Of a DNA stretch of 32,000 nucleotides, positions 903-30,559 are shown in pieces. Numbering within the stretch: position 1 is the first letter of the stretch; every line of letters starts with the position of its first letter. A program made the position numbers and the translations under genes. The notes below the pieces were generated by a model. It was not told the origin of the DNA and did not search any database. It saw nothing but the letters and a program-made list of their open reading frames with translations. Source of the DNA: Vulcanisaeta distributa DSM 14429 (GTDB lineage Archaea; Thermoproteota; Thermoprotei; Thermoproteales; Thermocladiaceae); contig NC_014537.1 of the NCBI RefSeq assembly GCF_000148385.1, positions 660,001-692,000 of the forward strand. Direction: 5' to 3'.

Positions 903-3143
903 TTACCTATAAAGGACGTCCTCGCCTGCGAGCTTAACCATGAGCATGTCCCTAACCCTACCACTTAATGCCCTGAGTAATTCCCTATTGCCAATTATTG
1001 ACTGTAATGAGTATATGCCGGCTGCACCAAGGAGTTGGGCAATCTCCCTCTTAATGCCCGTTAGGAACCTCATTAGCCTAAGCCTAAAGTCCTCAATACT
1101 CTCATAACCATGCAGAGCCCTCTCCACAAAACCGCTTATGATGACCGCATCCGCGCCAAGGGCCACCAACTTAACAATATCACCACTACTCCTAACGCTG
1201 GGCATGTGTATTATCAAGTCCACGTAATCCCTAACACCCCTCCTCCTAAGCTCCAAATCAAGCCTCACCAGGATTGCCTCTGGGTGGTCATCACTAACGT
1301 CAATTATCACGCCACTAAACCGACTAACACCCCTCACCAACTCATTCACCGCATTACTAACCTCATCAACACCTGTGACCTTCAGGTACGTGGGCACGTC
1401 AATGCCAGACCCAACCCGCCCTGCATGATCAATCACAAGCGCGCCCAAGCCATTCACGTACCTATCCCACATAACTCTCATCAAGTGCTTATTATCTGTC
1501 ACGTCCACGCCCTCGAGATCTATCATCACGGAGTTCGCCCTGACCACGAATTTAGCGGCCTTAATGAGGTCATCATCCCAGGTCCTTGGAGGCTTAATTA
1601 TCACTGGCATGGAGAGCCACAGCCTACCGCCGGCGAGTATCGTTGAGACGTCTATGTCCTCCCTATATGGGTCTATGGCTGGCTTCGTGACTTGGGCACC
1701 ATCAAACCTAAGCCAATCAATCAACCTCTTCGGAGGCTCAACCTCAGGGGGTCCATTACTACCCATGCTGACTATGACCACGTCACCGCTCCTCACGAGT
1801 TGTGTCACGTATATTGAGTAGTCAGGGGTCCAGACATCGCCCTTGCTCGTAATATCACCATCACCGGTATCGCAATTTACGCTCTTAATGCCCAGCACCC
1901 TAGCCGTGACCTCATCAATACAGTGACCCCGTAATAGGTCCCTCCTACCCACAAGCCTCCTAACATCGTCAATACCCAGGTGGTCCAGGATTAACCTTAA
2001 TTCCTCCATAAACGCCACTAGGAAGTTCCTTGAGGACCTTAGTGCGAATTCGTAATCAACAATCACAGACCCATCGGCAATTTTACTTGTTATCCCCGCC
2101 GGGCAATTACCCCTATGGCATGTCCTAGCCATGGCGCACCCCATGGATATCAGTAGGGCTGTTCCAAGGGCGATAGCGTCCGCACCAAGGGCCATGAGCT
2201 TCGCCGCATCATCCGCCGTGGAGACCCTGCCGGAGGCTATTAATGTAATTCTATCCCTCAGACCCTCCTCCCTGAGCATCCTATCGGCGGAGGCCACGGC
2301 TAACTCAATGGGTATGCCCACGTTATCCCTAACCACCAATGGCGTGGCCCCCGTACCAGCCCCATGACCATCGATTATTACACCATCGGCGCCCATCCTG
2401 GCTATGCCCGTAACTATGTACGGCGTATAATTTGTGGCGGCGATCTTCACAAACACGGGCTTACCCGTCGCCTCCTTAAGCGCGTCAATCCTTTGCTTCA
2501 AGTCCTCGATGGAGTATATGTCATGGTGTGGCGCGGGCGATAGTGCATCAACACCCACTGGTATCCTCCTGACCTGGGATATGACCGAGGTAACCTTGGA
2601 GCCAGGTAGGTGACCGCCAATGCCGGGCTTTGCACCCTGCCCGATCTTAATTACTATGCCCATGCCAGCCATCAACGTGTTTATGTCAACGCCAAACCTA
2701 GCCGAAGCCCATTGAACAAATATTCTCCTATGCCTAGCAACCTCTGGGTGAAGCCCACCTTCCCCGGTGCCGCTGATGAGCATCAACTCATCAGCGAGCT
2801 CCGCCTCTACGACATTTGGGACCCCGGCGAGGGACCCAAAGGACATGTCTGCCAGGTATATGGGTGCGGATACCTCAATACCCCCTATGAACGACGTGAG
2901 GCTAGCCCTGCCCCTCTCATTACCCACCAACCTAATTTCGTCAATTCCAAAATCAACATTATCAAGAATCCTAAACCTCCTAACACCCCTCCTAAATACC
3001 CTAATTGGCCTACCGTGCATTGCCATCTCCCTAATCTCCTCAACAACGCCACTATGCCAGAAGTCGCTTGTTGGCCCCTTATTCGTCAACCTAATGAAGT
3101 CTTTAATTACCTGCCTGGGCCTTATATTGATTATATAATTCAT
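903..3143 (-). CDS. glutamate synthase large-subunit-like protein: FMN/Fe-S barrel (GltB domain 2) followed by a degenerate second copy of the same module
   Basis: 746-aa ORF. Residues ~65-440 carry LSPAPHHDIYSIEDL, GHGAGTGAT and GRVSTADDAAKLMALGADAIALGTALLISMGC..CHRGNCPAGI, typical of the glutamate synthase FMN domain. Residues ~475-746 align collinearly with the first module but lack the catalytic and Cys motifs. Confidence 0.8.
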   Translation of the reverse strand: MNYIINIRPRQVIKDFIRLTNKGPTSDFWHSGVVEEIREMAMHGRPIRVFRRGVRRFRILDNVDFGIDEIRLVGNERGRASLTSFIGGIEVSAPIYLADMSFGSLAGVPNVVEAELADELMLISGTGEGGLHPEVARHRRIFVQWASARFGVDINTLMAGMGIVIKIGQGAKPGIGGHLPGSKVTSVISQVRRIPVGVDALSPAPHHDIYSIEDLKQRIDALKEATGKPVFVKIAATNYTPYIVTGIARMGADGVIIDGHGAGTGATPLVVRDNVGIPIELAVASADRMLREEGLRDRITLIASGRVSTADDAAKLMALGADAIALGTALLISMGCAMARTCHRGNCPAGITSKIADGSVIVDYEFALRSSRNFLVAFMEELRLILDHLGIDDVRRLVGRRDLLRGHCIDEVTARVLGIKSVNCDTGDGDITSKGDVWTPDYSIYVTQLVRSGDVVIVSMGSNGPPEVEPPKRLIDWLRFDGAQVTKPAIDPYREDIDVSTILAGGRLWLSMPVIIKPPRTWDDDLIKAAKFVVRANSVMIDLEGVDVTDNKHLMRVMWDRYVNGLGALVIDHAGRVGSGIDVPTYLKVTGVDEVSNAVNELVRGVSRFSGVIIDVSDDHPEAILVRLDLELRRRGVRDYVDLIIHMPSVRSSGDIVKLVALGADAVIISGFVERALHGYESIEDFRLRLMRFLTGIKREIAQLLGAAGIYSLQSIIGNRELLRALSGRVRDMLMVKLAGEDVLYR

Positions 3144-21859: not shown

Positions 21860-22149
21860 ATGTTCGTAGATTACGACATTAACAAGGCCAGACCCTCAGA
21901 AGCGCGCAATACTAGTGAACAGCGTAAGCTAATGACATCATTAAACTCATTTAAACTATAACGTCGCCATATCATTAACTAGTACATTCGATGAGTTTCT
22001 ACATGCGTAAGAAATTAAGAATCAATGATATGCACTACTGTGATTAAGCCACATGTTATTTCTCGGCTGTACTGGAAATCTTCAACTTTGCTCGGTTCAC
22101 TTTTATGAACACCCGAAGTTAAAAAAGTCCCGCGAAATAAAAGGTTCTG

Positions 22150-23733
22150 ATGGTTATGGGTTTGAGAGTGGGGTGGTTATTAGTTTTGGTTATTGCTGCC
22201 TTGTCCGTTGTCTTCTCGGTGCTTTCCTTCGTTAGGGCTCAGCCCAGTCCTGTTGGGAGTCTTAGGCTTCCTCATGGCGTGATTTCCTACTACTCGTCGA
22301 CGTCGATTTCGGTTTCTCCTGGCTTGGTTGTTAGGGTTTACGCAATCAATGGTTCTAGGATCTACCCGGTTCAAGCCTTCGTGGCTGTTTATGGTTTGAC
22401 TCCTAGGCACATCGTGCCCATTGCCTATGGCTTTAGCTCTATGGTGAGTGTGCCGTTCAATAACACGAATTGGTTATTCATAGCCAATAGGTGGCTATCC
22501 TTCAACCCAAGCGTTAATGAGTACAACACCTCACTCCTAGTATTCATCACGTACATAGACTTCACGAGGAATGAAAGCTGGATTGAGGCGTACTCAGTAC
22601 CATACAACATTGGCTGGGTCATGGGCAACCCAGGGAGAATCAAGTACATAGTCCTAACAGCCTACATAAACCTAAGCTCAAAGCCATTTAGGGTGGTTCC
22701 CGTTAAGCAATTACCGCAGGGTCAACCCGTAATTAATTCGGCGAGTAAAGACCCCGTTTATACGGAGTATAACTGCGTTGAGCAAAGCCCAACCGCGCCA
22801 AAACTCACCAATGGACCATACATCTACTACCCAATACTAAACTGCTACGGATTCACAGGACCGATACCACTGGATTGGATAACGTGGAGTCAGGGAATTA
22901 CGAACGAATATAAGAACTATGGATTAGATTTTCTAATTGATGTGTTTTATTCCGGCAGGTTTACTTGGGATGCGGTTGGTTATTATGAGAATGGTGGATT
23001 TAGTACAATCGGTACCTCTTATCAGGCAAGTGTAAATTGGAACCCGCCCATAATGGATATTGGTGATAGTGGTTATCTTACTCAGCCTGGTAGTTTCTAC
23101 TTTGCCTACGATGGTTCCTTCGCCCTGGCTAATTATACAGAGTACTATTACAACATTCACACGGGTTACGTCTACGTGGGTAATGTCGTCATTTCAGAAG
23201 TAATTAGTGTGTCGTCAACAAGCTGGTTCGTTTACGGCACTGATTATGGCAATGGGCCAATCAGCTATATATACAAAGTCCTAATATTACTTGCGGAGCA
23301 GGGGCTTGGATACCCAGCTCTAAACAAATCAACCATAGTAACATACGCAAGCTGGGTATACGGAAGACAAGGACCAGGATGCGGAGTAATATCATCAGAG
23401 CCAATAAGCTCCTTTTATGCCTGGTGGTTAACGCTAGAGAGCTTAACCACGACTTACGGCGTTAGTCCTGCCCAGTTGGGTGTGACCCTTGGCACCATTG
23501 GCGTTGAACCCGCTGAGATATTACTCGACTTAATCGGTTTAACACTACCACCGAACACGTCAATATCATTAATACATACCGAGTTTGAAATTGAAGCCCC
23601 TACGAATAACTTGTATCACATTGCTTGGTACTTGTCCTTAATAAACGCATCTGACGTCTTCGGCATCTCAACCTTCGGATTCATAGTAAACGCAACAAAT
23701 TATTACCAAGGCGCCTACAACTGCAATGGCTAA
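22150..23733 (+). CDS. orphan secreted / cell-surface glycoprotein candidate
   Basis: 527 aa. The N-terminal signal-like segment is MVMGLRVGWLLVLVIAALSVVFSVLSFVRAQPSP. There are about ten N-x-S/T sequons and 4 Cys, the composition is rich in Y/W/N/G/S, and there is no C-terminal TM segment. I recognise no family motif. Confidence 0.65.
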   Translation: MVMGLRVGWLLVLVIAALSVVFSVLSFVRAQPSPVGSLRLPHGVISYYSSTSISVSPGLVVRVYAINGSRIYPVQAFVAVYGLTPRHIVPIAYGFSSMVSVPFNNTNWLFIANRWLSFNPSVNEYNTSLLVFITYIDFTRNESWIEAYSVPYNIGWVMGNPGRIKYIVLTAYINLSSKPFRVVPVKQLPQGQPVINSASKDPVYTEYNCVEQSPTAPKLTNGPYIYYPILNCYGFTGPIPLDWITWSQGITNEYKNYGLDFLIDVFYSGRFTWDAVGYYENGGFSTIGTSYQASVNWNPPIMDIGDSGYLTQPGSFYFAYDGSFALANYTEYYYNIHTGYVYVGNVVISEVISVSSTSWFVYGTDYGNGPISYIYKVLILLAEQGLGYPALNKSTIVTYASWVYGRQGPGCGVISSEPISSFYAWWLTLESLTTTYGVSPAQLGVTLGTIGVEPAEILLDLIGLTLPPNTSISLIHTEFEIEAPTNNLYHIAWYLSLINASDVFGISTFGFIVNATNYYQGAYNCNG

Positions 23734-23779
23734 TAAATTAAGTAAAATCTTTAAAACAATCCTTTATTCACTTATCATT

Positions 23780-23803
23780 TATTAACACTGGTATTAACAC
23801 TGG
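23780..23803. repeat. perfect 12-bp tandem duplication (TATTAACACTGG x2)
   Basis: Read directly at 23780-23791 and 23792-23803, in the convergent intergenic region between the secreted protein gene and leuD. Confidence 0.9.
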
Positions 23804-23856
23804 CTAAGCTTATTCAGTAAATTCTAATATGGTGATTGTGCTCTGATGCGCATCGG

Positions 23857-24378
23857 TTATGGTTTATACCGTGATTTTATATACTCGAGTAGGCCGCCGC
23901 TCATTAATATCTCAAGGGCCATGCCCGTTATTGGCCTGGCCCTTAGGATCTTCTGACCATTGTTAATAATAACCTCTCCTGTGCCCACATTAACCCTCAC
24001 GAAGTCACCATCATTTACCTCCCTACTAACCCCAGGCACCACCAGCACTGGTAGGCCATTGTTAATTGCATTCCTATAGAATATCCTGGCAAAGGACTCG
24101 GCCAATACAGCCTTAACGCCAGCCGCCTTTAGGGCTATGGCCGCCTGTTCACGGCTTGAGCCCATGCCAAAGCCCCTACCTGCAACCAGGATCACGCCTT
24201 TGTTAGCCTTCTCGAAGAAGTTCGGTATTAAGGGCTCCATGGCATGCTTGGCGAGTATTGATGGGTCCGTATAAACAAGGTACCTGGCTGGTATTATCAC
24301 GTCAGTGTCTATATTATCACCAACCTTTATCACGGGACCCTCCACAACGAACTCGCTAGACCCCACATTCCATGGCAT
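23857..24378 (-). CDS. leuD: 3-isopropylmalate dehydratase / homoaconitase small subunit
   Basis: 173 aa with [14 protein letters not shown] and [44 protein letters not shown]. Confidence 0.85.
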
Positions 24379-24555: not shown

Positions 24556-26124
24556 GTGAGGGTTGAGGTACTGGACACGACACTTAGGGATGGAGCCCAA
24601 ATGACTGGTGTTTCGTTCACGCTTAATGACAAGGTTAGGATTGCCCTGATGCTCGATGACCTCGGCGTTGATTACATAGAGGGTGGTTGGCCTGGCAGTA
24701 ATCCTAAGGATGCCGAGTTCTTTAAGGCGATGAGGAATTACTCACTAAGTCACGCTAAGCTTGCGGCCTTTGGTATGACTAGGAGGAAGGGCGTCAGTGC
24801 TAAGGATGACCTTAACCTGGCTGCTATACTGGATTCAGGCGTTGAGGTAGCGGTCCTGGTTGGTAAGTCCTGGATACTCCACGTTAGGGAGGTGCTTAGG
24901 GTTAGTCCTGAGGATAACCTGGACATGGTCTACGATAGTATTCGTTACCTTAAGGACCATGGATTGAGGGTAATCTTCGATGCTGAACATTTCTATCAGG
25001 GATTTAGGGAGGACCCGGACTACGCGCTTAGGGTTGTTAAGACTGCCGAGGAGGCTGGGGCGGATACCGTGGTCCTTGCGGACACAAACGGTGCCATGCT
25101 ACCCCACGAAGTTTACGAAATAACGGGTAAGGTTGTGAAGGAGTTAAGGGTTACGGTTGGCGTTCACATGCATAATGACTCTGGCTGCGCAGTGGCTAAC
25201 ACTATAATGGGTGTATTGGCTGGTGCGCGTCATGTGCAGGGAACCATTAATGGGCTTGGTGAGAGGACGGGCAATGCCGATTTAACCCAGGTAATACCAA
25301 ACCTAATGCTTAAACTAGGCTTTAAAGTGCTTAGGGGTATTGATGACCTCAGGAAGTTAAAGGTGATATCCAGGTTCGTCTATGAGGCGGCGGGTTTAAA
25401 CCCAAACCCGTACCAGCCATACGTGGGTGATTACGCCTTCTCCCATAAGGCAGGTTTGCACGTTGATGGTGTTTCCAAGGTAACTAAGGCTTATGAGCAC
25501 ATAGACCCCGAGCTCATTGGTAATACGAGGAGGTTCGTGGTTTCCGAGCTCGCCGGCTCATCAAACATACTCGTATACCTTAAGGACCTAGGCTTTAACA
25601 TAAGTAAGGAGGACCCGAGGTTAAGGCGTGCCCTTGAGAGGATAAAGGACCTTGAGAATAGGGGGTATAGCTTCGATTTAGCCCCTGCTTCAGCAATACT
25701 CATAGCCCTTAGGGAGATGGGGCTCTATAACGATATGTTGAGGGTTGAGTATTGGAAGGTCGTTAGTGATGATGACATGCACGTGGCCATAGTAAAAGTT
25801 AATGGAGAGCTTGGCGTCGCCGAGGGTGTTGGGCCTGTTCACGCAATTGATAAGGCGTTGAGGAGCGTCGCCTCCAAGTTATTCCCTGAACTCAATAATG
25901 TAAAGCTCACTGACTATAGGGTTATAATCCCTGGTGAGGTTAAGGGTACGGAGAGTGTAGTGAGGGTTCTCATGGAATTTGATGATGGAAGGACTAGGTG
26001 GAGGACTGTGGGTGTATCAACAAGTATAATCAAGGCAAGCGTTGAGGCGTTGAGTGATGGACTTAATTACATACTAATGATCCGTAATCACAATACCACG
26101 AAGGTAAATAATACAACGTATTAA
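24556..26124 (+). CDS. cimA: citramalate synthase-like / 2-isopropylmalate synthase, long form with C-terminal LeuA-dimer type regulatory domain
   Basis: 522 aa, GTG start. Motifs are LDTTLRDGAQMTGVSFTLNDKVRIALMLDDLGVDYIEGGWPGSNPKDAEFF (the GWPGSNPKD signature I associate with the CimA-type clade), HMHNDSGCAVANT, GTINGLGERTGNA and HKAGLHVDG, plus a ~140-aa C-terminal extension. Confidence 0.75.
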   Translation: MRVEVLDTTLRDGAQMTGVSFTLNDKVRIALMLDDLGVDYIEGGWPGSNPKDAEFFKAMRNYSLSHAKLAAFGMTRRKGVSAKDDLNLAAILDSGVEVAVLVGKSWILHVREVLRVSPEDNLDMVYDSIRYLKDHGLRVIFDAEHFYQGFREDPDYALRVVKTAEEAGADTVVLADTNGAMLPHEVYEITGKVVKELRVTVGVHMHNDSGCAVANTIMGVLAGARHVQGTINGLGERTGNADLTQVIPNLMLKLGFKVLRGIDDLRKLKVISRFVYEAAGLNPNPYQPYVGDYAFSHKAGLHVDGVSKVTKAYEHIDPELIGNTRRFVVSELAGSSNILVYLKDLGFNISKEDPRLRRALERIKDLENRGYSFDLAPASAILIALREMGLYNDMLRVEYWKVVSDDDMHVAIVKVNGELGVAEGVGPVHAIDKALRSVASKLFPELNNVKLTDYRVIIPGEVKGTESVVRVLMEFDDGRTRWRTVGVSTSIIKASVEALSDGLNYILMIRNHNTTKVNNTTY

Positions 26125-26357
26125 TAAATCATGCTACTCTGGACATTTAACAATTTAAATCAACGTAAATTCATTGCATTACTCAGCCTATGAGATGAGC
26201 CGTAAAATAGGCTTTATGGGTTATTATGTTTCGTTAATATTTCATTAAGGAGACTACAATCCCTAAGTAGTCCTAAGTAATCAATGCTAATTTACTACTT
26301 AGTTACTCGAATCACCGCACAAAAAGGAATAAGTGCTATGCCATGAGGGTGTTACGA

Positions 26358-26406
26358 GTGATGAATGCCGAGTTCGCAGAATGGTGAAGAGTCGGTTCTA
26401 TGCTGA
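26358..26406 (+). ncRNA. candidate C/D box sRNA (2'-O-methylation guide)
   Basis: C box GTGATGA (26358-64), 12-nt spacer, D' CAGA (26377-80), 4-nt loop, C' TGAAGA (26385-90), 12-nt spacer, D box CTGA (26403-06). This is a 49-nt unit with the canonical archaeal architecture and exact 12-nt guide spacing. It is intergenic. Confidence 0.5.
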
Positions 26407-26457
26407 ATTTAAGAAATAATGTGTCTGCCTTCGTAATAATCCATTGAGTCCTTCTAT

Positions 26458-26478
26458 ATCAGGGAAAGGCTTTTTACC
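26458..26478 (+). repeat. left copy of the 21-nt perfect direct repeat ATCAGGGAAAGGCTTTTTACC (core of a longer diverged repeat ~26340-26525)
   Basis: Exact match to 28473-28493 in the same orientation. Patchy collinear similarity continues on both sides. Confidence 0.9.
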
Positions 26479-26591
26479 CTCAATACGTGATTACGCACCA
26501 GTAGATGATGAGTTTAGAGCCCACTTTTATAGTAATTTGTTAAATTTTCTTATATCGGTTCGGTAAAGTAAGCCGTATGGGAAGAAATGTT

Positions 26592-27305
26592 TTATTGTGC
26601 CCGTGGGCCCTGGGCGGGGCAGTTTAGGTTAATCATCGCCTTGGTCACTGATCGAGCTCTCTCGATCTTACCTTCGTTCATTGTCTCATTAAGCATCCTC
26701 CTCAGAACCTCACAGACCTTAACGACCAGCACTGGATGTCTCACAATTTCGTCCTTGTTTATGAAGACCACAAATTTCTTACCTCGTTGAGATAACTTAG
26801 CATCGTAATCAGCCTTTTGTAAGGCTTCCTGAACCGCCTTTGCGTCCTCGAGCATACTACGGTTAATAACAAGTTCGATATACCCATTTCGAGTTACACG
26901 TATGCTCATTTGTACTCCATTGATGACCTCGACTGACGAGCTACCCTTCGGCTTAATCCTCGTGCTAGCTAGCGTCATTAGTTTTCTGAGCTTCATGGCA
27001 TCGGGTAGGGAGCTCAAGTCCTCAATCAAAGTCTTAATTAATGGATCATTAAGTCCCTTTCTAGTGAGCTCAACGGCTTTTGAGCTAGCAATTTTATAGC
27101 GTATTCTGGCCCTACGTTCATTGCGTTCATCATACCTGAATCCGATGGCTTTCATCCTCTCAATAATATCTTTCCACAAATTATGCTTCGGATTGCCAAT
27201 CGTGAGCCTAATCCTCTTCTTCTCAACATCGCCATCACCTAATACGGCAGATAGTAAAAAATATCGGGAATTTCTCATCATCAAGCTTGGATGCCTCCTC
27301 GGCAA
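26592..27305 (-). CDS. C-terminal part of the orphan gene; LAGLIDADG-like domain candidate
   Basis: This is the 237-aa track ORF, with TTG read as the start. FLLSAVLGDGDVEKKRIRLTIGNPKHNLWKDIIERMKAIGFRYDERNERRARIRYKIASSKAVELTRKGL resembles a LAGLIDADG helix followed by the beta-beta-alpha-beta-beta core. It probably continues the upstream ORF (see findings). Confidence 0.5.
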   Translation of the reverse strand: MPRRHPSLMMRNSRYFLLSAVLGDGDVEKKRIRLTIGNPKHNLWKDIIERMKAIGFRYDERNERRARIRYKIASSKAVELTRKGLNDPLIKTLIEDLSSLPDAMKLRKLMTLASTRIKPKGSSSVEVINGVQMSIRVTRNGYIELVINRSMLEDAKAVQEALQKADYDAKLSQRGKKFVVFINKDEIVRHPVLVVKVCEVLRRMLNETMNEGKIERARSVTKAMINLNCPAQGPRAQ

Positions 27306-28182
27306 CTTTAACCTTATTAGTGAATTTATTCCTATGATCGCGGGCTACTAAATACCACTTGATATTAACATCATTCACATTAAGATTCACGCCATATATA
27401 TGTACATAGTTTTCCCTGGGCCATGTCAGTATCCACATCACAGACTGCCAAAGCTGGTTCGTGCCCATCGTCGGATAATCGTGCGTAATTGAGGCATCGG
27501 TCATTAGCCAGCCGTACTGCATTGGCCTCAATGTATCGTCACTGAACAACTTGGAAGTTATGATGTTAGTACCCCTAGAGCCAACCAATGATATGTTTAT
27601 TGTTACGCCACTTCCTCTGATTTTAGTTATTGCGATTGAAAGATGGTCCGTGTATAGGTGCGCTATAAAACTCCTTTTGATATTGAATGGTTCGCCATTA
27701 ATGATCACTTTAACTTCTCTCTTCCTTAGCCCCTCGATTAATTTCTCGAGCTCTTTTCGGTATATTGTCAGCCACTTCTCCCTGGCTTGTTTTGCTAACG
27801 TGAGCATTTTCTCGCCAATGTTTATCATTGCCCTCCTCATCCTCATGATGTTTTCATCGTTGGTCTCCTTAACCTTCGTTTCCATCAGCGTCAGCCAGTT
27901 GCTTAGTTCGTTGATTGCCTTGTCGAATGGTGTGTTCGACTCACTCAACAATACATCCTTGCGTCTCTCGACTCTTTTCAGAAATTCGTTGATTAGCCTA
28001 TTGACCTCCTCGATTGTTTTTGGATCGTTGACTGGTTCGCCACACCTTAATCGCTTACCGCCCTCGACCTTGACGCCCCAGCAAATCCTTAAGCCGTTAA
28101 GAGCCATGGAGACATCCATAAGGTTATTCATCAACCGAACTAATAAGCCACTACCAACCCAGTGCTGAAATGGAATAAGCAC
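27235..28182 (-). CDS. N-terminal part of the orphan gene (K/E-rich helical region, then a W/Y-rich region); no family recognised
   Basis: 315-aa ORF with a GTG start; ATG alternatives lie at 28131 and downstream. It overlaps the next ORF by 71 nt, and a T6 run on the coding strand (27256-27261) lies inside that overlap. Confidence 0.5.
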   Translation of the reverse strand: MLIPFQHWVGSGLLVRLMNNLMDVSMALNGLRICWGVKVEGGKRLRCGEPVNDPKTIEEVNRLINEFLKRVERRKDVLLSESNTPFDKAINELSNWLTLMETKVKETNDENIMRMRRAMINIGEKMLTLAKQAREKWLTIYRKELEKLIEGLRKREVKVIINGEPFNIKRSFIAHLYTDHLSIAITKIRGSGVTINISLVGSRGTNIITSKLFSDDTLRPMQYGWLMTDASITHDYPTMGTNQLWQSVMWILTWPRENYVHIYGVNLNVNDVNIKWYLVARDHRNKFTNKVKVAEEASKLDDEKFPIFFTICRIR

Positions 28183-28211
28183 TTAATTGAAAGCCCTAGT
28201 CAGGTACGGGA

Positions 28212-28231
28212 GTAGGGCGTACAAGCCCTAC
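28212..28231. other. 7-bp stem / 6-nt loop hairpin (GTAGGGC gtacaa GCCCTAC)
   Basis: Perfect inverted repeat read directly, 30 nt upstream (in gene orientation) of the orphan ORF start. Confidence 0.6.
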
Positions 28232-28234
28232 ACT

Positions 28235-28348
28235 AACCTCACCTACCACACCCTCGACAACCCACCAACACCAGGAAAACGCTAAGAAAAATACACAACA
28301 CATACACACAAACAACGAAACAAACACAGAACAAAATTTCCCAAGCCC
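28235..28348. other. 114-nt strand-asymmetric A+C-rich tract (G+T-rich on the orphan gene strand)
   Basis: My count is 9 T and 8 G in 114 nt, about 85% A+C, with CA/ACA-type low complexity (ACACAACACATACACACAAACAACGAAACAAACACAGAACAAAA). Confidence 0.85.
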
Positions 28349-28472
28349 AGGTAGAGAGGGATTATGAAGCACTTAAGATTATGTTGAGTACCGAGTATAT
28401 CATCCGAGCGCAGACTCCCCTGCTGTGACGATAGGCTGAGGGGTTATGCTTGATTAAGTGGTTATGTTAATC

Positions 28473-28493
28473 ATCAGGGAAAGGCTTTTTACC
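28473..28493 (+). repeat. right copy of the 21-nt perfect direct repeat (core of a longer diverged repeat ~28390-28537)
   Basis: Exact match to 26458-26478. Confidence 0.9.
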
Positions 28494-28514
28494 TTGTGAG
28501 CGCATTGCTGGTAG

Positions 28515-28575
28515 GTGACGATTTTTTAGAGCCCGCTGATTGGATTTATTTCAATGATGAGTGGCTGAGCGCTGA
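28515..28575 (+). ncRNA. weaker candidate C/D box sRNA
   Basis: C-like GTGACGA (28515-21), 14-nt spacer containing TTTAGAGCCC, D' CTGA (28536-39), 14-nt loop, C' ATGATGA (28554-60), 11-nt spacer, D CTGA (28572-75). The boxes are present but the spacings are off-canonical. Confidence 0.25.
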
Positions 28576-28644
28576 TTGAATATTAAAAGATGAAGTTGAA
28601 GTTTAAGGAATTTTATGTGGAGATTTAGGCGTGGATAATGGAAA

Positions 28645-28956
28645 TTAGTCCACAAGTTCTATCTCTATTTTTATGTTCTCGGGAACCCTTAACCTCATTA
28701 ACTGCCTAATGGCCCTCTCGTCAGCGTCCATGTCTATTAATCGCTTATAGATCCTCATCTCCCAGTGGTCGTACGTGTGGTATCCCTGCCCACTTGGCGC
28801 CCTTCTAACCGTTACCAGCAATCTCTTCCTGGGCAGTGGTATTGGGCCTGAGACCTTAACGCCAAGTTTCTTAGCTATGCCTACTATCTCATTGGCTAAG
28901 TCATCAACCTGCTTACTGTCTGTTCCCCAAATGCGTATTCGCGCCTTTCTCGGCAT
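28645..28956 (-). CDS. rps10: 30S ribosomal protein S10 (uS10)
   Basis: 103 aa: ARIRIWGTDSKQVDDLANEIVGIAKKLGVKVSGPIPLPRKRLLVTVRRAPSGQG..HWEMRIYKRLIDM. It lies immediately downstream of EF-1alpha, the conserved archaeal arrangement. Confidence 0.9.
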   Translation of the reverse strand: MPRKARIRIWGTDSKQVDDLANEIVGIAKKLGVKVSGPIPLPRKRLLVTVRRAPSGQGYHTYDHWEMRIYKRLIDMDADERAIRQLMRLRVPENIKIEIELVD

Positions 28957-28962
28957 TAATCA

Positions 28963-30297
28963 TCACGCCTTAATTTCAACCTTCTTCGGCTTAATCTCGA
29001 TTATCTGCCCAGCGGCTATTGTCCTACCCATGTCCCTGAGGGCGAACCTACCAAGCCCTGGGAAGTCACTGTACTTCTCAACAACCACGTCCTTAAGCGG
29101 CTTAAGCCTAACAACCGCCACGTCACCCTGCTTAATGAACTGAGGCTTCTGCTCCACGGTCTGGCCCGTCCTTGGGTCCAGCTTGGCTATTAGCTCAACG
29201 ATCTGTGCTGGCACAGTCGCCGTGTGTATGTGGAGTACTGGTGTGTAGCCTGGGCCTATTGCCGTTGGGTGCCATAGAACGGCGATTCTAGCCACAATCT
29301 CCTCAGCAACCGTCGGTGGGTTGGCTAGGTGGCCCATCACGTCACCTCTCTTAACGTCCTCCTTCTCAATACCCCTAACGTTAATGCCAATGTTATCGCC
29401 GGGCTGCGCCTGCTCCAACTTCATGTGGTGCGTCTCTATGCTCCTGACATCACCGACCTTGGCAGGCGGCATTACGACAACCCTATCACCAACCTTAAGC
29501 ACTCCAGTCTCGACCCTACCGACAACCACCGTACCTGCACCTGTTATTGTGTAGACGTCCTGTATTGGTAGCCTGAATGGCTTGTCAACAGGCCTTGGCG
29601 GCGGCTGTAACGCATCAAGTGCCTCTAATAAGGTTGGCCCATTGTACCACGGCATGTTGCTGCTCTTCTCCTTAATATTGTCGCCCTTCAGGGCACTAAC
29701 CGGTATGAAGGGTACCTTCGATGGATCATAGCCGAGTAGCTTCATGAACTTGCTGACCTCAGCCTTGATCTGCTCATACCTCTTCTGGTCGTAGTTGACG
29801 ACATCCATCTTATTAACAGCCACTATTATCTGTCTAATACCCAACGTGGCAGCTAGGAATAGGTGCTCCCTAGTTTGACCCTGTGGTCCAATGCCCGTCT
29901 CGAACTCGCCAGGCCTTGCGGAGACAACGAGTAATGCGGCATCCGCTTGGCTTGCACCTACTATCATGTTCTTGACGAAGTCCCTGTGGCCCGGTAGGTC
30001 TATGATTGTTATGAAGTACTTGGGCGTCTCGAAGCCTACGTGCATCGCCTCAATCGTGACACCCCTCTCCCTCTCCTCCTTCAGCCTGTCAGTTACCCAG
30101 GCATATACGAAGTCCTCCTTACCCATCTTCTTAGCCTGCTCCTCAAGCTCCTTGAAGCCCTTCTCGTCAACATAGCCAGTAACCACCAGTAGGTGGCCCA
30201 CCAGTGTTGATTTGCCGTGGTCAACATGCCCTATAACCGCTAGGTTAAGGTGTGGCTTTTGTAAAGCCGTCTCCTTAGGCTTAAGTATCAGGCTCAT
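28963..30297 (-). CDS. tuf: translation elongation factor 1-alpha (aEF-1alpha / EF-Tu family)
   Basis: G motifs are GHVDHGKST, DLPGHRDF and NKMD. I place the start at the ATG at 30297 (MSLILKPKETALQKPHLNLAVIGHVDHGKST, 444 aa). The track start at 30366 adds 23 residues that run through the AT-rich promoter. Confidence 0.9.
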   Translation of the reverse strand: MSLILKPKETALQKPHLNLAVIGHVDHGKSTLVGHLLVVTGYVDEKGFKELEEQAKKMGKEDFVYAWVTDRLKEERERGVTIEAMHVGFETPKYFITIIDLPGHRDFVKNMIVGASQADAALLVVSARPGEFETGIGPQGQTREHLFLAATLGIRQIIVAVNKMDVVNYDQKRYEQIKAEVSKFMKLLGYDPSKVPFIPVSALKGDNIKEKSSNMPWYNGPTLLEALDALQPPPRPVDKPFRLPIQDVYTITGAGTVVVGRVETGVLKVGDRVVVMPPAKVGDVRSIETHHMKLEQAQPGDNIGINVRGIEKEDVKRGDVMGHLANPPTVAEEIVARIAVLWHPTAIGPGYTPVLHIHTATVPAQIVELIAKLDPRTGQTVEQKPQFIKQGDVAVVRLKPLKDVVVEKYSDFPGLGRFALRDMGRTIAAGQIIEIKPKKVEIKA

Positions 30298-30318
30298 ACC
30301 TATCAAGACGGAGTTGTG

Positions 30319-30335
30319 AAAATAAAAATTAATAA
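30319..30335 (-). promoter_or_regulatory. candidate TATA box for tuf-rps10
   Basis: The minus strand reads CTTATTAATTTTTATTTT, ending ~21 nt upstream of the ATG at 30297. That spacing is consistent with a leaderless transcript. Confidence 0.4.
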
Positions 30336-30559
30336 GTTTTTGGGTTTCGATCACCGACATGAACAAGGTTAAACAACGACCTTAAGTAAGTATTGCCCAT
30401 AGTGACTTTAACTTCTCCTGAAAAGGAATAATGGTTGTGGTCGATCTAATGGTTCCTCTTGGTGTAGATTGAAGTCTATCCTTAACATTACTTAGGTGGG
30501 TGTAATGAGAAATAGGTCAATGCCTATCTCATTGAGGGTTTATTTAACCACGTAAGTCA

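What the first reader, a model, noticed from the sequence alone, without database searches (positions are those of the whole stretch)
26340..28540. About 2 kb single-gene insertion flanked by chimeric direct repeats with a perfect 21-nt core, in a housekeeping intergenic region
ATCAGGGAAAGGCTTTTTACC occurs at 26458-26478 and again at 28473-28493, in the same orientation and 2015 bp apart. Weaker collinear similarity extends outward. To the left, CCGAGttCGCAGA matches CCGAGCGCAGA, and GGTTctATGCTGAaTTtAAG matches GGTTATGCTtGATTAAG. To the right, GTAGATGATGAG..TTTAGAGCCC matches GTAGGTGACGAT..TTTAGAGCCC. The pattern is reciprocal. In the left repeat the upstream part holds an intact-looking C/D sRNA, while the downstream sRNA-like unit has a canonical C box but is truncated after its first guide. 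In the right repeat the upstream copy is decayed (no C box, and CTTGA in place of the D box), and the downstream unit has all four boxes but a noncanonical C box and off-canonical spacing. That is roughly the attL/attR-like outcome expected if a circular DNA carrying a ~190-bp homologue of this locus integrated by a single crossover at the 21-nt core, though the stronger C box sits in the truncated copy, which the model does not predict. The cargo is one orphan gene plus a peculiar non-coding region. I recognise no integrase, transposase or Rep, so the mobilisation mechanism would be unknown. Alternatively, the 21-mer (a GAAAGG + CTTTTTA, BRE/TATA-like sequence) is a conserved sRNA promoter and the repeats are paralogous sRNA loci.
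Basis: partly seen in the sequence, partly recalled or inferred. Interest (0 to 1): 0.75.

Follow-up and report, generated by a model that had tools for sequence, protein, structure and literature searches.

The report
Homing-endonuclease gene splits duplicated sRNA gene
A 1.9-kb insertion carrying a now-frameshifted LAGLIDADG homing-endonuclease-type gene sits inside one of two tandem copies of a small methylation-guide RNA gene in Vulcanisaeta distributa, and the repeated 21-mer is that RNA gene's promoter, present once per copy.

Summary
The 21-mer is real: exactly two copies, 2015 bp apart. The 2 kb between them is a true insertion. Five distinct alleles from related Vulcanisaeta, including V. 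souniana, carry sRNA-A, the promoter and sRNA-B side by side with nothing in between.

The unit left of the right-hand 21-mer is not a decayed sRNA-A. It is the 3' half of sRNA-B plus its downstream flank (0 of 3000 shuffles reach the score). The layout is therefore A, promoter, B*5' | 1887-nt insert | B*3', promoter, intact B. Deleting 26526-28412 in silico restores a full-length promoter-plus-B unit.

In every lineage the 21-mer lies at the position of sRNA-B's promoter-like element.

The cargo is not an orphan. It is one gene broken by a +1 frameshift, from a multi-copy, unannotated family seen mostly in Vulcanisaeta. The family has two conserved LAGLIDADG motifs, and its predicted fold matches archaeal homing endonucleases.

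How it arrived is unresolved. I favour integration of a foreign endonuclease-bearing sRNA-B allele by recombination in the conserved promoter. The main rival is an in-situ tandem duplication followed by insertion. I rate it a new variant of a known kind, of moderate interest.

The parts
24556..26124 (+). cimA-type (HMGL-like/LeuA_dimer) gene, the left neighbour in this genome only
   Evidence: Pfam match. In relatives the gene downstream of cimA is an aspartate-kinase-like gene, not the sRNAs.
26318..26319 (.). Synteny breakpoint. To the right of it the sequence is orthologous to the peptidase-M16/sRNA-A intergenic region of relatives. To the left it is unique to this genome.
   Evidence: Alignment to V. 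souniana starts at ACAA, directly after the position of the pepM16 start codon.
26358..26406 (+). C/D box sRNA-A, intact and native (GTGATGA / ATGCCGAGTTCG / CAGA / TGAAGA / GTCGGTTCTATG / CTGA)
   Evidence: Box scan. Profile built from relatives, E 4.5e-12. Orthologues in L085, L089, L090, L093 and L098.
26458..26478 (+). Left 21-mer, the BRE/TATA-like promoter element of the split sRNA-B copy (B*)
   Evidence: Spacer/promoter profile E 1.3e-4. TTTTTA lies 28 nt before the C box.
26503..26525 (+). B* 5' half: C box ATGATGA (26505-11), D' guide GTTTAGAGCCCA, and the first two bases (CT) of the D' box. Homology breaks at 26525|26526.
   Evidence: sRNA-B profile positions 4-23, E 7.5e-4 and 1e-4. 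Alignment to V. souniana.
26526..28412 (.). The inserted block (1887 nt), absent from all related alleles
   Evidence: Empty sites. In-silico excision restores a full promoter-plus-B unit at 41.8 bits, the best of 8 boundary variants.
26592..28121 (-). LAGLIDADG-type gene, about 510 aa if repaired. It is split into ORFs 27235..28182 and 26592..27305 by a +1 frameshift.
   Evidence: Vdis_0702 is the N-terminal half; full-length homologues are about 500 aa. Alignment A3 shows motifs YGLLLTDGSI and FLLxAVLGDG. AF2 pLDDT 87. Foldseek top hits are LAGLIDADG endonucleases.
27256..27261 (-). A6/T6 homopolymer where the reading frame shifts, just upstream of LAGLIDADG motif 2
   Evidence: Three-frame translation. 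Homologues read straight through (...EKFLTFLL...).
28122..28192 (-). Conserved 5' leader and promoter region shared by paralogous loci (TTTCAAT..TGCTTA..GGTAGTG..TTATTAG..CTTATGGATG)
   Evidence: blastn homology limits. Alignment of four loci.
28263..28345 (+). CA-rich tract (GT-rich on the gene strand). Tracts of similar composition lie upstream of paralogues. Function unknown.
   Evidence: Sequence.
28346..28412 (+). Unassigned end of the insert.
   Evidence: Only a weak sRNA-A 5' profile hit (E 0.029 in 133 nt). Pairwise tests are not significant.
28413..28472 (+). B* 3' half and downstream flank: GA (rest of the D' box), loop remnant CTCCCCTGCT, C'-like GTGACGA (28425-31), D guide TAGGCTGAGGGG, CTTGA, then TTAAGTGGTTATGTTAATC
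   Evidence: Alignment to the V. souniana sRNA-B 3' half plus flank: 0 of 3000 shuffles and 0 genomic controls reach the score under 3 scoring schemes. B 3' profile E 0.005.
28473..28493 (+). Right 21-mer, the promoter element of the intact sRNA-B
   Evidence: TTTTTA lies 23 nt before the C box, as in all relatives.
28515..28575 (+). C/D box sRNA-B, intact (GTGACGA / TTTTTTAGAGCCCG / CTGA / loop / TGATGA / GTGGCTGAGCG / CTGA)
   Evidence: Box scan. Profile E 8e-9. Orthologues in all relatives.
28645..28956 (-). rps10, followed by EF-1alpha at 28963..30366 (-). This is the right neighbour, syntenic in all relatives.
   Evidence: Pfam. Loci L085-L091 and L098.

Best explanation
**What is there**
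The locus holds two tandem units, each made of a promoter plus C/D box sRNA-B. The first unit (B*) is split exactly in its D' box by a 1.9-kb cassette. The cassette's only gene encodes a LAGLIDADG homing-endonuclease-type protein. That gene is now inactivated, or at least split, by a frameshift. The second unit is intact and supplies the guide RNA. The 'perfect 21-nt core' is the sRNA-B promoter, one copy per unit.

**Shown here**
- The block is an insertion relative to five other alleles.
- Both halves of the split gene are identifiable.
- The 21-mer occupies the promoter position in every lineage.
- The cargo has a LAGLIDADG fold and both LAGLIDADG motifs.

**Inferred**
- The cassette originally entered an sRNA-B gene as a free-standing homing-endonuclease gene. 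The guide/D' box segment is a conserved sequence, which is the kind of target such enzymes use.
- The endonuclease-bearing allele (promoter, B*5', cassette, B*3', short flank) came from another, unsampled Vulcanisaeta lineage.
- It was integrated beside the resident gene by homologous recombination in the conserved promoter, as a Campbell-type or unequal exchange. The other end closed at the ...AATC|ATCAGGG junction.
- This route leaves the resident sRNA-A and sRNA-B intact and duplicates the promoter plus the sRNA-B 5' part.
For: - **Empty sites.** Five distinct alleles have pepM16, sRNA-A, promoter, sRNA-B, rps10 with no insert: the L085 group including JCM 14467, L089, L090, L093, and V. 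souniana L098.
- **Split gene.** The sRNA-B profile hits the 5' half at 26506-25. The V. souniana B 3' half plus flank aligns to 28417-71 with 0 of 3000 shuffles reaching the score. Deleting 26526-28412 raises the promoter-plus-B profile hit from 29.2 to 41.8 bits over model positions 4-100. That beats seven shifted control deletions.
- **Promoter.** The element sits at the same place in all alleles. It is 20/21 identical in L093 and has a constant 23-nt spacing to the C box.
- **Cargo.** Full-length homologues of about 500 aa show that the window copy is frameshifted. D218/G219 and D307/G308 are nearly invariant at the ends of two predicted helices. The top Foldseek hits against the PDB are I-Tsp061I, I-DmoI, PI-PfuI, E-DreI, I-AniI and the WhiA N-terminal domain. 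Sub-threshold Pfam LAGLIDADG_3 and LAGLIDADG_WhiA hits occur in several members.
- **Foreign origin.** No homologue is closer than 63-64% anywhere, whereas paralogue P0001 has a 91% counterpart in another genome. B* has a canonical C box and a GTGACGA C' box. That is the reverse of the resident B and of all five other alleles. The two units are 64% identical overall but 21/21 identical in the promoter.
Against: - No endonuclease activity or target has been shown.
- Other family members (L001, L002, L094, L095) are not next to C/D sRNA genes and have no flanking repeats.
- One paralogue appears vertically inherited, which fits a domesticated host protein equally well.
- Similarity to V. souniana cannot tell which unit is foreign: U1 56%, U2 46%, native flanks 55%, not significant.
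- The promoter is under selection, so perfect identity of the 21-mer does not by itself prove a crossover.
- No donor allele, circular form or extrachromosomal copy was found.
- A second structural change, the pepM16/cimA breakpoint, lies 140 nt to the left. The history may therefore be more complex than one event.
Confidence: 0.5

Rival explanations
1. In-situ history. The promoter-plus-sRNA-B unit (about 130 nt) first duplicated in tandem within the DSM 14429 lineage. Both copies stayed functional for a long time, so both promoters were conserved. A LAGLIDADG gene cassette then inserted into the first copy, by homing from another allele or by illegitimate recombination. This was tolerated because the second copy remained.
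For: The final topology is the same. Tandem or duplicated C/D sRNA genes with obliterated remnants are documented in Pyrobaculum (PMC6009581). Promoter conservation by selection would explain the 21/21 identity without a crossover. Divergence from V. souniana is similar for both units.
Against: None of five related alleles has two units. The swapped C and C' boxes of B* would need four directed substitutions. This route needs two independent rare events at one site.
Confidence: 0.3
2. The cargo is a domesticated LAGLIDADG-fold host protein, a DNA-binding or regulatory family, and not a mobile endonuclease. It reached this spot passively, through the same rearrangement activity that moved cimA next to sRNA-A. 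The repeats are by-products of that rearrangement.
For: The family is multi-copy and long (about 500 aa with extra N- and C-terminal domains). One paralogue is conserved at 91% between species. A synteny break lies at 26318|26319. Truncated genes abut paralogues in L001 and L002. Domesticated LAGLIDADG proteins are known, such as WhiA and HO (PMC3384342).
Against: Unlike WhiA, the acidic residues at the ends of both LAGLIDADG helices are nearly invariant (criterion from PMC3384342). The insert lies precisely inside a conserved RNA gene and is absent from relatives. This copy has no orthologue.
Confidence: 0.13
3. A circular element carrying a homologue of about 190 bp of sRNA-A, core and sRNA-B integrated by a single crossover at the 21-nt att-like core. 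This would give attL (native A plus element B') and attR (element A' plus native B).
For: Identical 21-mers 2015 bp apart. Empty sites exist. Intact sRNA-A lies on the left and intact sRNA-B on the right.
Against: The supposed A' is not detectable as an sRNA-A homologue. It is significantly the sRNA-B 3' half plus flank. There is no recombinase and no episomal, viral or plasmid copy.
Confidence: 0.04
4. There is no insertion at all. The region holds two paralogous sRNA loci that happen to share a conserved promoter, with an ordinary gene between them.
For: The 21-mer is a promoter-like element conserved across species.
Against: Five alleles lack the 2 kb. The two halves of one sRNA gene flank it, and in-silico excision restores the gene.
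Confidence: 0.02

Closest known systems
Archaeal LAGLIDADG homing endonucleases of rRNA introns (I-DmoI, I-Tsp061I, I-Vdi141I of V. distributa) and free-standing homing endonuclease genes
   Same: Two LAGLIDADG helices that end in acidic residues. [quoted passage not shown] The gene sits inside a conserved functional RNA gene and is absent from related alleles. It has decayed by a frameshift, as in the known homing-endonuclease life cycle (background: PMC2602781).
   Different: It is not inside a self-splicing or BHB intron or an intein. It is antisense to the host RNA gene. The protein is about 500 aa, with an N-terminal beta plus coiled-coil region of about 200 aa and an extra C-terminal domain. 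The target is a C/D box sRNA gene, not rRNA, tRNA or a protein gene. It falls below Pfam thresholds. No activity is known.
Campbell-type integration with attL/attR next to RNA genes (tRNA-targeting integrative elements of archaea)
   Same: An identical core flanks the inserted DNA. Part of an RNA gene is duplicated, so a functional copy is preserved.
   Different: There is no integrase. The 'core' is the gene's promoter. The flanks are about 60% diverged homologues rather than an element-borne att site. No free form of the element was found.
[quoted passage not shown] 2018, PMC6009581)
   Same: A duplicated sRNA gene in which one copy is disrupted or left as a remnant. Each gene has its own promoter. 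Boxes and guides are plastic.
   Different: Here the disrupted copy is split cleanly by a protein-coding cassette of a nuclease family, and both halves are still recognisable.
WhiA/DUF199 and other domesticated LAGLIDADG proteins
   Same: A LAGLIDADG fold fused to extra domains. A chromosomal, free-standing gene. Weak Pfam LAGLIDADG_WhiA hits.
   Different: WhiA lacks the catalytic acidic residues (PMC3384342). This family keeps them in at least 90% of aligned members.

Membership tests
LAGLIDADG homing endonuclease | Two LAGLIDADG helices, each ending in a conserved acidic residue | tested here: met
   Alignment A3 has motifs YGLLLTDGSI and FLLxAVLGDG. D218/G219 and D307/G308 are at least 90% conserved and lie at the C-terminal ends of predicted helices 204-217 and 295-307. 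The window copy has TDA and GDG.
LAGLIDADG homing endonuclease | [quoted passage not shown] | tested here: met
LAGLIDADG homing endonuclease | Match to a curated family model above threshold | tested here: not met
   Only sub-threshold hits. Best is LAGLIDADG_3 at E 1.2e-4. P0005 scores 18.1 bits against a 22.5-bit cut-off. No NCBIfam match and no PDB sequence match.
LAGLIDADG homing endonuclease | Gene lies within its conserved target and is polymorphic (present or absent) among alleles | tested here: met
   The insert splits the D' box of an sRNA-B copy. Five empty alleles exist, and in-silico excision restores the gene.
LAGLIDADG homing endonuclease | Site-specific cleavage of the uninterrupted allele, followed by homing | not testable with these tools
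   Needs biochemistry or genetics.
LAGLIDADG homing endonuclease | Embedded in a self-splicing intron, archaeal BHB intron or intein (the usual but not obligatory context) | tested here: not met
   The ORF is antisense to the sRNA. The junction regions do not pair: cofold -13.5 kcal/mol against a shuffled mean of -17.0.
Integrase-type integrative element (attL/attR) | Encodes a tyrosine or serine recombinase | tested here: not met
   The only gene is the LAGLIDADG-type ORF. There are no recombinase domains.
Integrase-type integrative element (attL/attR) | Identical core sequence at both ends | tested here: met
   21/21 identity. However, the core coincides with a conserved promoter.
Integrase-type integrative element (attL/attR) | Related free or integrated copies elsewhere (virus, plasmid, other genomes) | tested here: not met
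   No hits in IMG/VR, INPHARED phages or PLSDB plasmids.
C/D box sRNA (sRNA-A, sRNA-B) | Boxes C, D', C' and D with guides of 10-14 nt, conserved at the orthologous position | tested here: met
   The box scan finds exactly sRNA-A and sRNA-B in the window and their orthologues in L085, L093 and L098. Profiles give E 4.5e-12 and 8e-9. Rfam hits are only weak, 14-18 bits against gathering scores of 40-45.
C/D box sRNA (sRNA-A, sRNA-B) | Guide complementarity to rRNA or tRNA | not tested
WhiA/DUF199-like domesticated LAGLIDADG regulator | Loss of the catalytic acidic residues | tested here: not met
   The acidic residues are retained in at least 90% of aligned family members. The criterion comes from PMC3384342.

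The most novel reading that the evidence does not exclude
A previously undescribed family of free-standing LAGLIDADG homing endonucleases in Vulcanisaeta uses a C/D box methylation-guide RNA gene as its homing site. It spreads as a cassette of about 2 kb: promoter, 5' half-gene, endonuclease gene, 3' half-gene. The cassette lands beside the resident gene rather than replacing it, by recombining in the conserved sRNA promoter. It therefore needs no recombinase of its own and never destroys the host's guide RNA.
Probability: 0.15. Interest if true: 0.8.

Novelty: new variant of a known kind. Interest (0 to 1): 0.55.

Why it matters
- If the cargo is an active or recently active homing endonuclease, it adds a new target class. 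Small non-coding guide-RNA genes would join the rRNA, tRNA and protein genes these elements are known to invade.
- It would also define a new, long-form, free-standing LAGLIDADG family in Crenarchaeota. About 250 sequence clusters are currently annotated only as hypothetical proteins.
- It gives a concrete example of how C/D box sRNA loci are remodelled: duplication, splitting and box swapping. It also shows how a conserved archaeal promoter can act as the only stretch of identity available for recombination between diverged alleles.
- Practically, it corrects the annotation. Vdis_0702 and the ORF after it are one frameshifted gene. Three sRNA features are unannotated: sRNA-A, sRNA-B and the split B*.

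Tried and rejected
- **Decayed sRNA-A copy in the right repeat.** Rejected and replaced by the sRNA-B 3' half.
- **Archaeal BHB-intron reading of the insert.** The junctions do not pair better than shuffles.
- **Virus or plasmid origin.** The cargo family is absent from IMG/VR, INPHARED phages and PLSDB plasmids. The two IMG/VR hits to the promoter 17-mer lie in unrelated phage coding sequence.
- **Terminal repeats or conserved ends of a mobile unit.** Homology between paralogous loci stops at the stop codon and 70-140 nt upstream of the start. Paralogues have no flanking direct repeats.
- **Remnant of a divergent 144-aa ORF upstream (L095).** The shared stretch differs mostly at non-synonymous positions (my reading), so it is DNA homology and not a conserved coding remnant. 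It has no Pfam hit.
- **Deciding which sRNA-B unit is foreign from similarity to V. souniana.** Not significant.
- **General association of the family with C/D sRNA genes.** None was found beside four other members.
- **Structured RNA in the conserved leader.** Only weak support: -9.5 kcal/mol, with 3 covarying pairs among 4 sequences.
- **ORF 22150..23733 as another family member.** It is not one.


Full report
**Source and observation**

The N-terminal ORF of the cargo is 100% identical to Vdis_0702 of Vulcanisaeta distributa DSM 14429. This identifies the source of the window. The 21-mer ATCAGGGAAAGGCTTTTTACC occurs exactly twice, at 26458 and 28473 on the same strand. No further match exists with up to 3 mismatches, and none is expected by chance. 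The flanking genes are a cimA-type gene at 24556..26124 (+) and rps10 plus EF-1alpha at 28645..30366 (-).

**The cargo**

- The 2 kb holds two overlapping minus-strand ORFs of 315 and 237 aa. They are one gene broken by a +1 frameshift in a T6 run, which is plus-strand A6 at 27256-27261.
- A search with the fused sequence found 42 homologues, nearly all named Vulcanisaeta. Most are about 500 aa and read through the shift point. Several occur per genome, at 47-64% identity.
- A profile search of 1.84 billion representatives found 247 clusters. No curated family matches above threshold.
- The alignment (A3) shows two LAGLIDADG-type motifs about 90 residues apart, YGLLLTDGSI and FLLxAVLGDG. Their Asp-Gly pairs are nearly invariant.
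- An AlphaFold model of paralogue P0001 (pLDDT 87) places both motifs at the ends of helices. Each helix is followed by beta-beta-alpha-beta-beta elements.
- The best Foldseek matches in the PDB are LAGLIDADG homing endonucleases, including the archaeal I-Tsp061I, I-DmoI and PI-PfuI, and the WhiA N-terminal domain.
- WhiA-type domesticated proteins lack the acidic residues (PMC3384342). This family keeps them.
The frameshift falls just before motif 2.

**Empty sites**

Contigs encoding an rps10 identical to the window's, a metagenome pattern scan and the V. souniana genome gave five distinct alleles. In all of them EF-1alpha and rps10 are followed by an intergenic region of about 300-330 nt and then a peptidase-M16 gene. 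In window orientation, every one of these regions contains the following, with nothing in between:

- sRNA-A
- a 10-46 nt spacer
- a BRE/TATA-like element (..GAAA.GCTTTTTACC)
- exactly 23 nt
- sRNA-B

L091 is an independent read set with the same sequence as the window, and it carries the insertion. The 2 kb is therefore a lineage-specific insertion. The non-canonical C box GTGACGA of sRNA-B is its native state. The cimA neighbourhood is not ancestral. Relatives have an aspartate-kinase-like gene after cimA. Orthology with the pepM16/sRNA-A spacer begins at window 26319.

**What the repeats are**

I built profiles only from the relatives and searched the window with them.

| Profile | Window hit | E-value |
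|---|---|---|
| sRNA-A | 26355-26405 only | 4.5e-12 |
| spacer/promoter | both 21-mers | about 1e-4 |
| sRNA-B | 28514-28575, full length | 8e-9 |
| sRNA-B | 26506-26525, 5' half only | 7.5e-4 |

Its pairwise similarity to sRNA-A is not significant (p 0.03-0.85).
- Once the V. souniana sequence was in hand, the unit before the right 21-mer turned out to be the 3' half of sRNA-B plus its downstream flank. The window reads TGACGATAGGCTGAGGGGTTATGCTTGATTAAGTGGTTATGTTAAT. V. souniana reads TGATGAGAGGCTGAGAGCTGA..ATTATTAAGTGGTTTTGTAAT.
- None of 3000 dinucleotide shuffles, and none of about 2800 random genomic segments, reached that alignment score under three scoring schemes.
- The homology of the left half ends at ...GAGCCCACT (26525). 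The right half resumes with GA (28413). The D' box CTGA is therefore split into CT and GA.
- Deleting 26526-28412 in silico produces one contiguous hit to the promoter-plus-sRNA-B profile. It spans model positions 4-100 at 41.8 bits, against 29.2 bits for the 5' half alone. It is the best of eight boundary variants.

The architecture is:

sRNA-A, spacer, [P, B*5' | 1887-nt insert | B*3', short flank], [P, intact B], rps10.

The robust direct repeat is about 70 nt, 26458-26525 against 28473-28539. It consists of the promoter plus the first part of sRNA-B.

**The 21-mer**

- It occupies the promoter position of sRNA-B in every lineage.
- It is 20/21 identical in L093. It carries three changes including an indel in V. 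souniana, and is 15/21 identical in the L085 group.
- It is a constrained element, but it is not invariant.
- Within the window the two units are 64% identical overall. That is about as diverged as units from different species, yet they are 21/21 identical in the promoter.
- This fits two readings. One is a recombination or conversion event at the promoter. The other is two promoters that were both under selection until recently.

**How it got there (inference)**

- B* differs from the resident sRNA-B and from all five other alleles in one striking way. It has a canonical C box (ATGATGA) and a GTGACGA C' box, which is the reverse arrangement. This is hard to obtain by neutral decay of a copy of the resident gene. 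It suggests that B* evolved as a functional gene in a different lineage.
- The cargo has no orthologue: nothing is closer than 64%. Another family member has a 91% counterpart in a second species.
- I therefore favour the following model. An endonuclease-split sRNA-B allele from an unsampled Vulcanisaeta lineage recombined with the resident locus in the only long identical stretch, the promoter. The exchange was Campbell-type or unequal, and it left the resident sRNA-A and sRNA-B intact.
- I could not decide which unit is foreign from similarity to V. souniana. No donor, circle or episome was found.
- The main rival is an old in-situ tandem duplication followed by insertion into one copy.
- A BHB-intron reading was tested and rejected.

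**Limits on the homing-endonuclease reading**

- Other family members (L001, L002, L094, L095) have no adjacent C/D sRNA genes and no flanking repeats.
- Homology between loci covers only the coding sequence plus a 70-140 nt leader.
- At least one paralogue looks vertically inherited.
- Domestication therefore cannot be excluded, and enzymatic activity is untested.

**Verdict**

- It is a real insertion with promoter-containing direct repeats. The repeats belong to two tandem sRNA-B units, one of them split by a LAGLIDADG-type gene.
- It is not an attL/attR pair made of chimeric sRNA-A/sRNA-B homologues around an orphan gene.
- I rate it a new variant of a known kind and of moderate interest.

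Noticed in passing
window 26125-26319: Synteny break. In all relatives sRNA-A is preceded by the start of a peptidase-M16 gene, and cimA is followed by an aspartate-kinase-like gene. In this genome cimA abuts sRNA-A through 194 nt of unique sequence, and orthology resumes exactly after the position of the pepM16 start codon.
   Followed up: partly
window 21871-23870 (ORF 22150..23733, +, 527 aa): A block of about 2 kb encoding a signal-peptide-like, Asn/Tyr/Gly-rich protein is absent from the syntenic regions of four related genomes (L005, L006, L023, L069). Those genomes have 138-1234 nt there instead. It is not related to the cargo family.
   Followed up: partly
window 26505-26511 and 28425-28431, compared with 28515-28521 and 28554-28560: In the split copy B* the C box is canonical (ATGATGA) and the C' box is GTGACGA. 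In the intact sRNA-B and all five orthologues the arrangement is the reverse. The two K-turn boxes appear to have swapped.
   Followed up: partly
window 26517-26525 and 28405-28414: An imperfect direct repeat lies at the two insert junctions: GAGCCCACT on the left and GAGCGCAGA on the right (7 of 9 identical). It could be microhomology used at insertion, or chance.
   Followed up: no
window 28122-28345 (-); L001 3860-3990; L002 3880-3990; L095 about 2830-3000: Family genes share a conserved leader of 70-95 nt (TTTCAAT..TGCTTA..GGTAGTG..TTATTAG..CTTATGGATGT.TCCATGG), preceded by GT-rich low-complexity tracts of variable length. Consensus folding gives only weak support for structure. Function unknown.
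   Followed up: partly
L001 5674-5949 and L002 5586-6509: The genes directly after the 3' end of two paralogues are short fragments: a 91-aa DLH (dienelactone hydrolase) piece and a 307-aa MoCoBD_2-only piece. This suggests that these family members also sit at truncation or rearrangement junctions.
   Followed up: no
L089 5415-6403, L090 5824-6312, L095 4702-4983: PaREP1-family genes lie near the rps10/argG region in two metagenomic Vulcanisaeta alleles and next to a cargo paralogue.
   Followed up: no
L001 6320-6454: A tRNA-like sequence with an apparent long insertion (an intron?) lies at the contig end, downstream of paralogue P0005.
   Followed up: no
window 28576-28590 compared with L098: The intact sRNA-B unit lacks 14 nt (ATTATTAAGTGGTT) of the downstream flank that V. 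souniana has. The split copy B* retains that stretch.
   Followed up: partly
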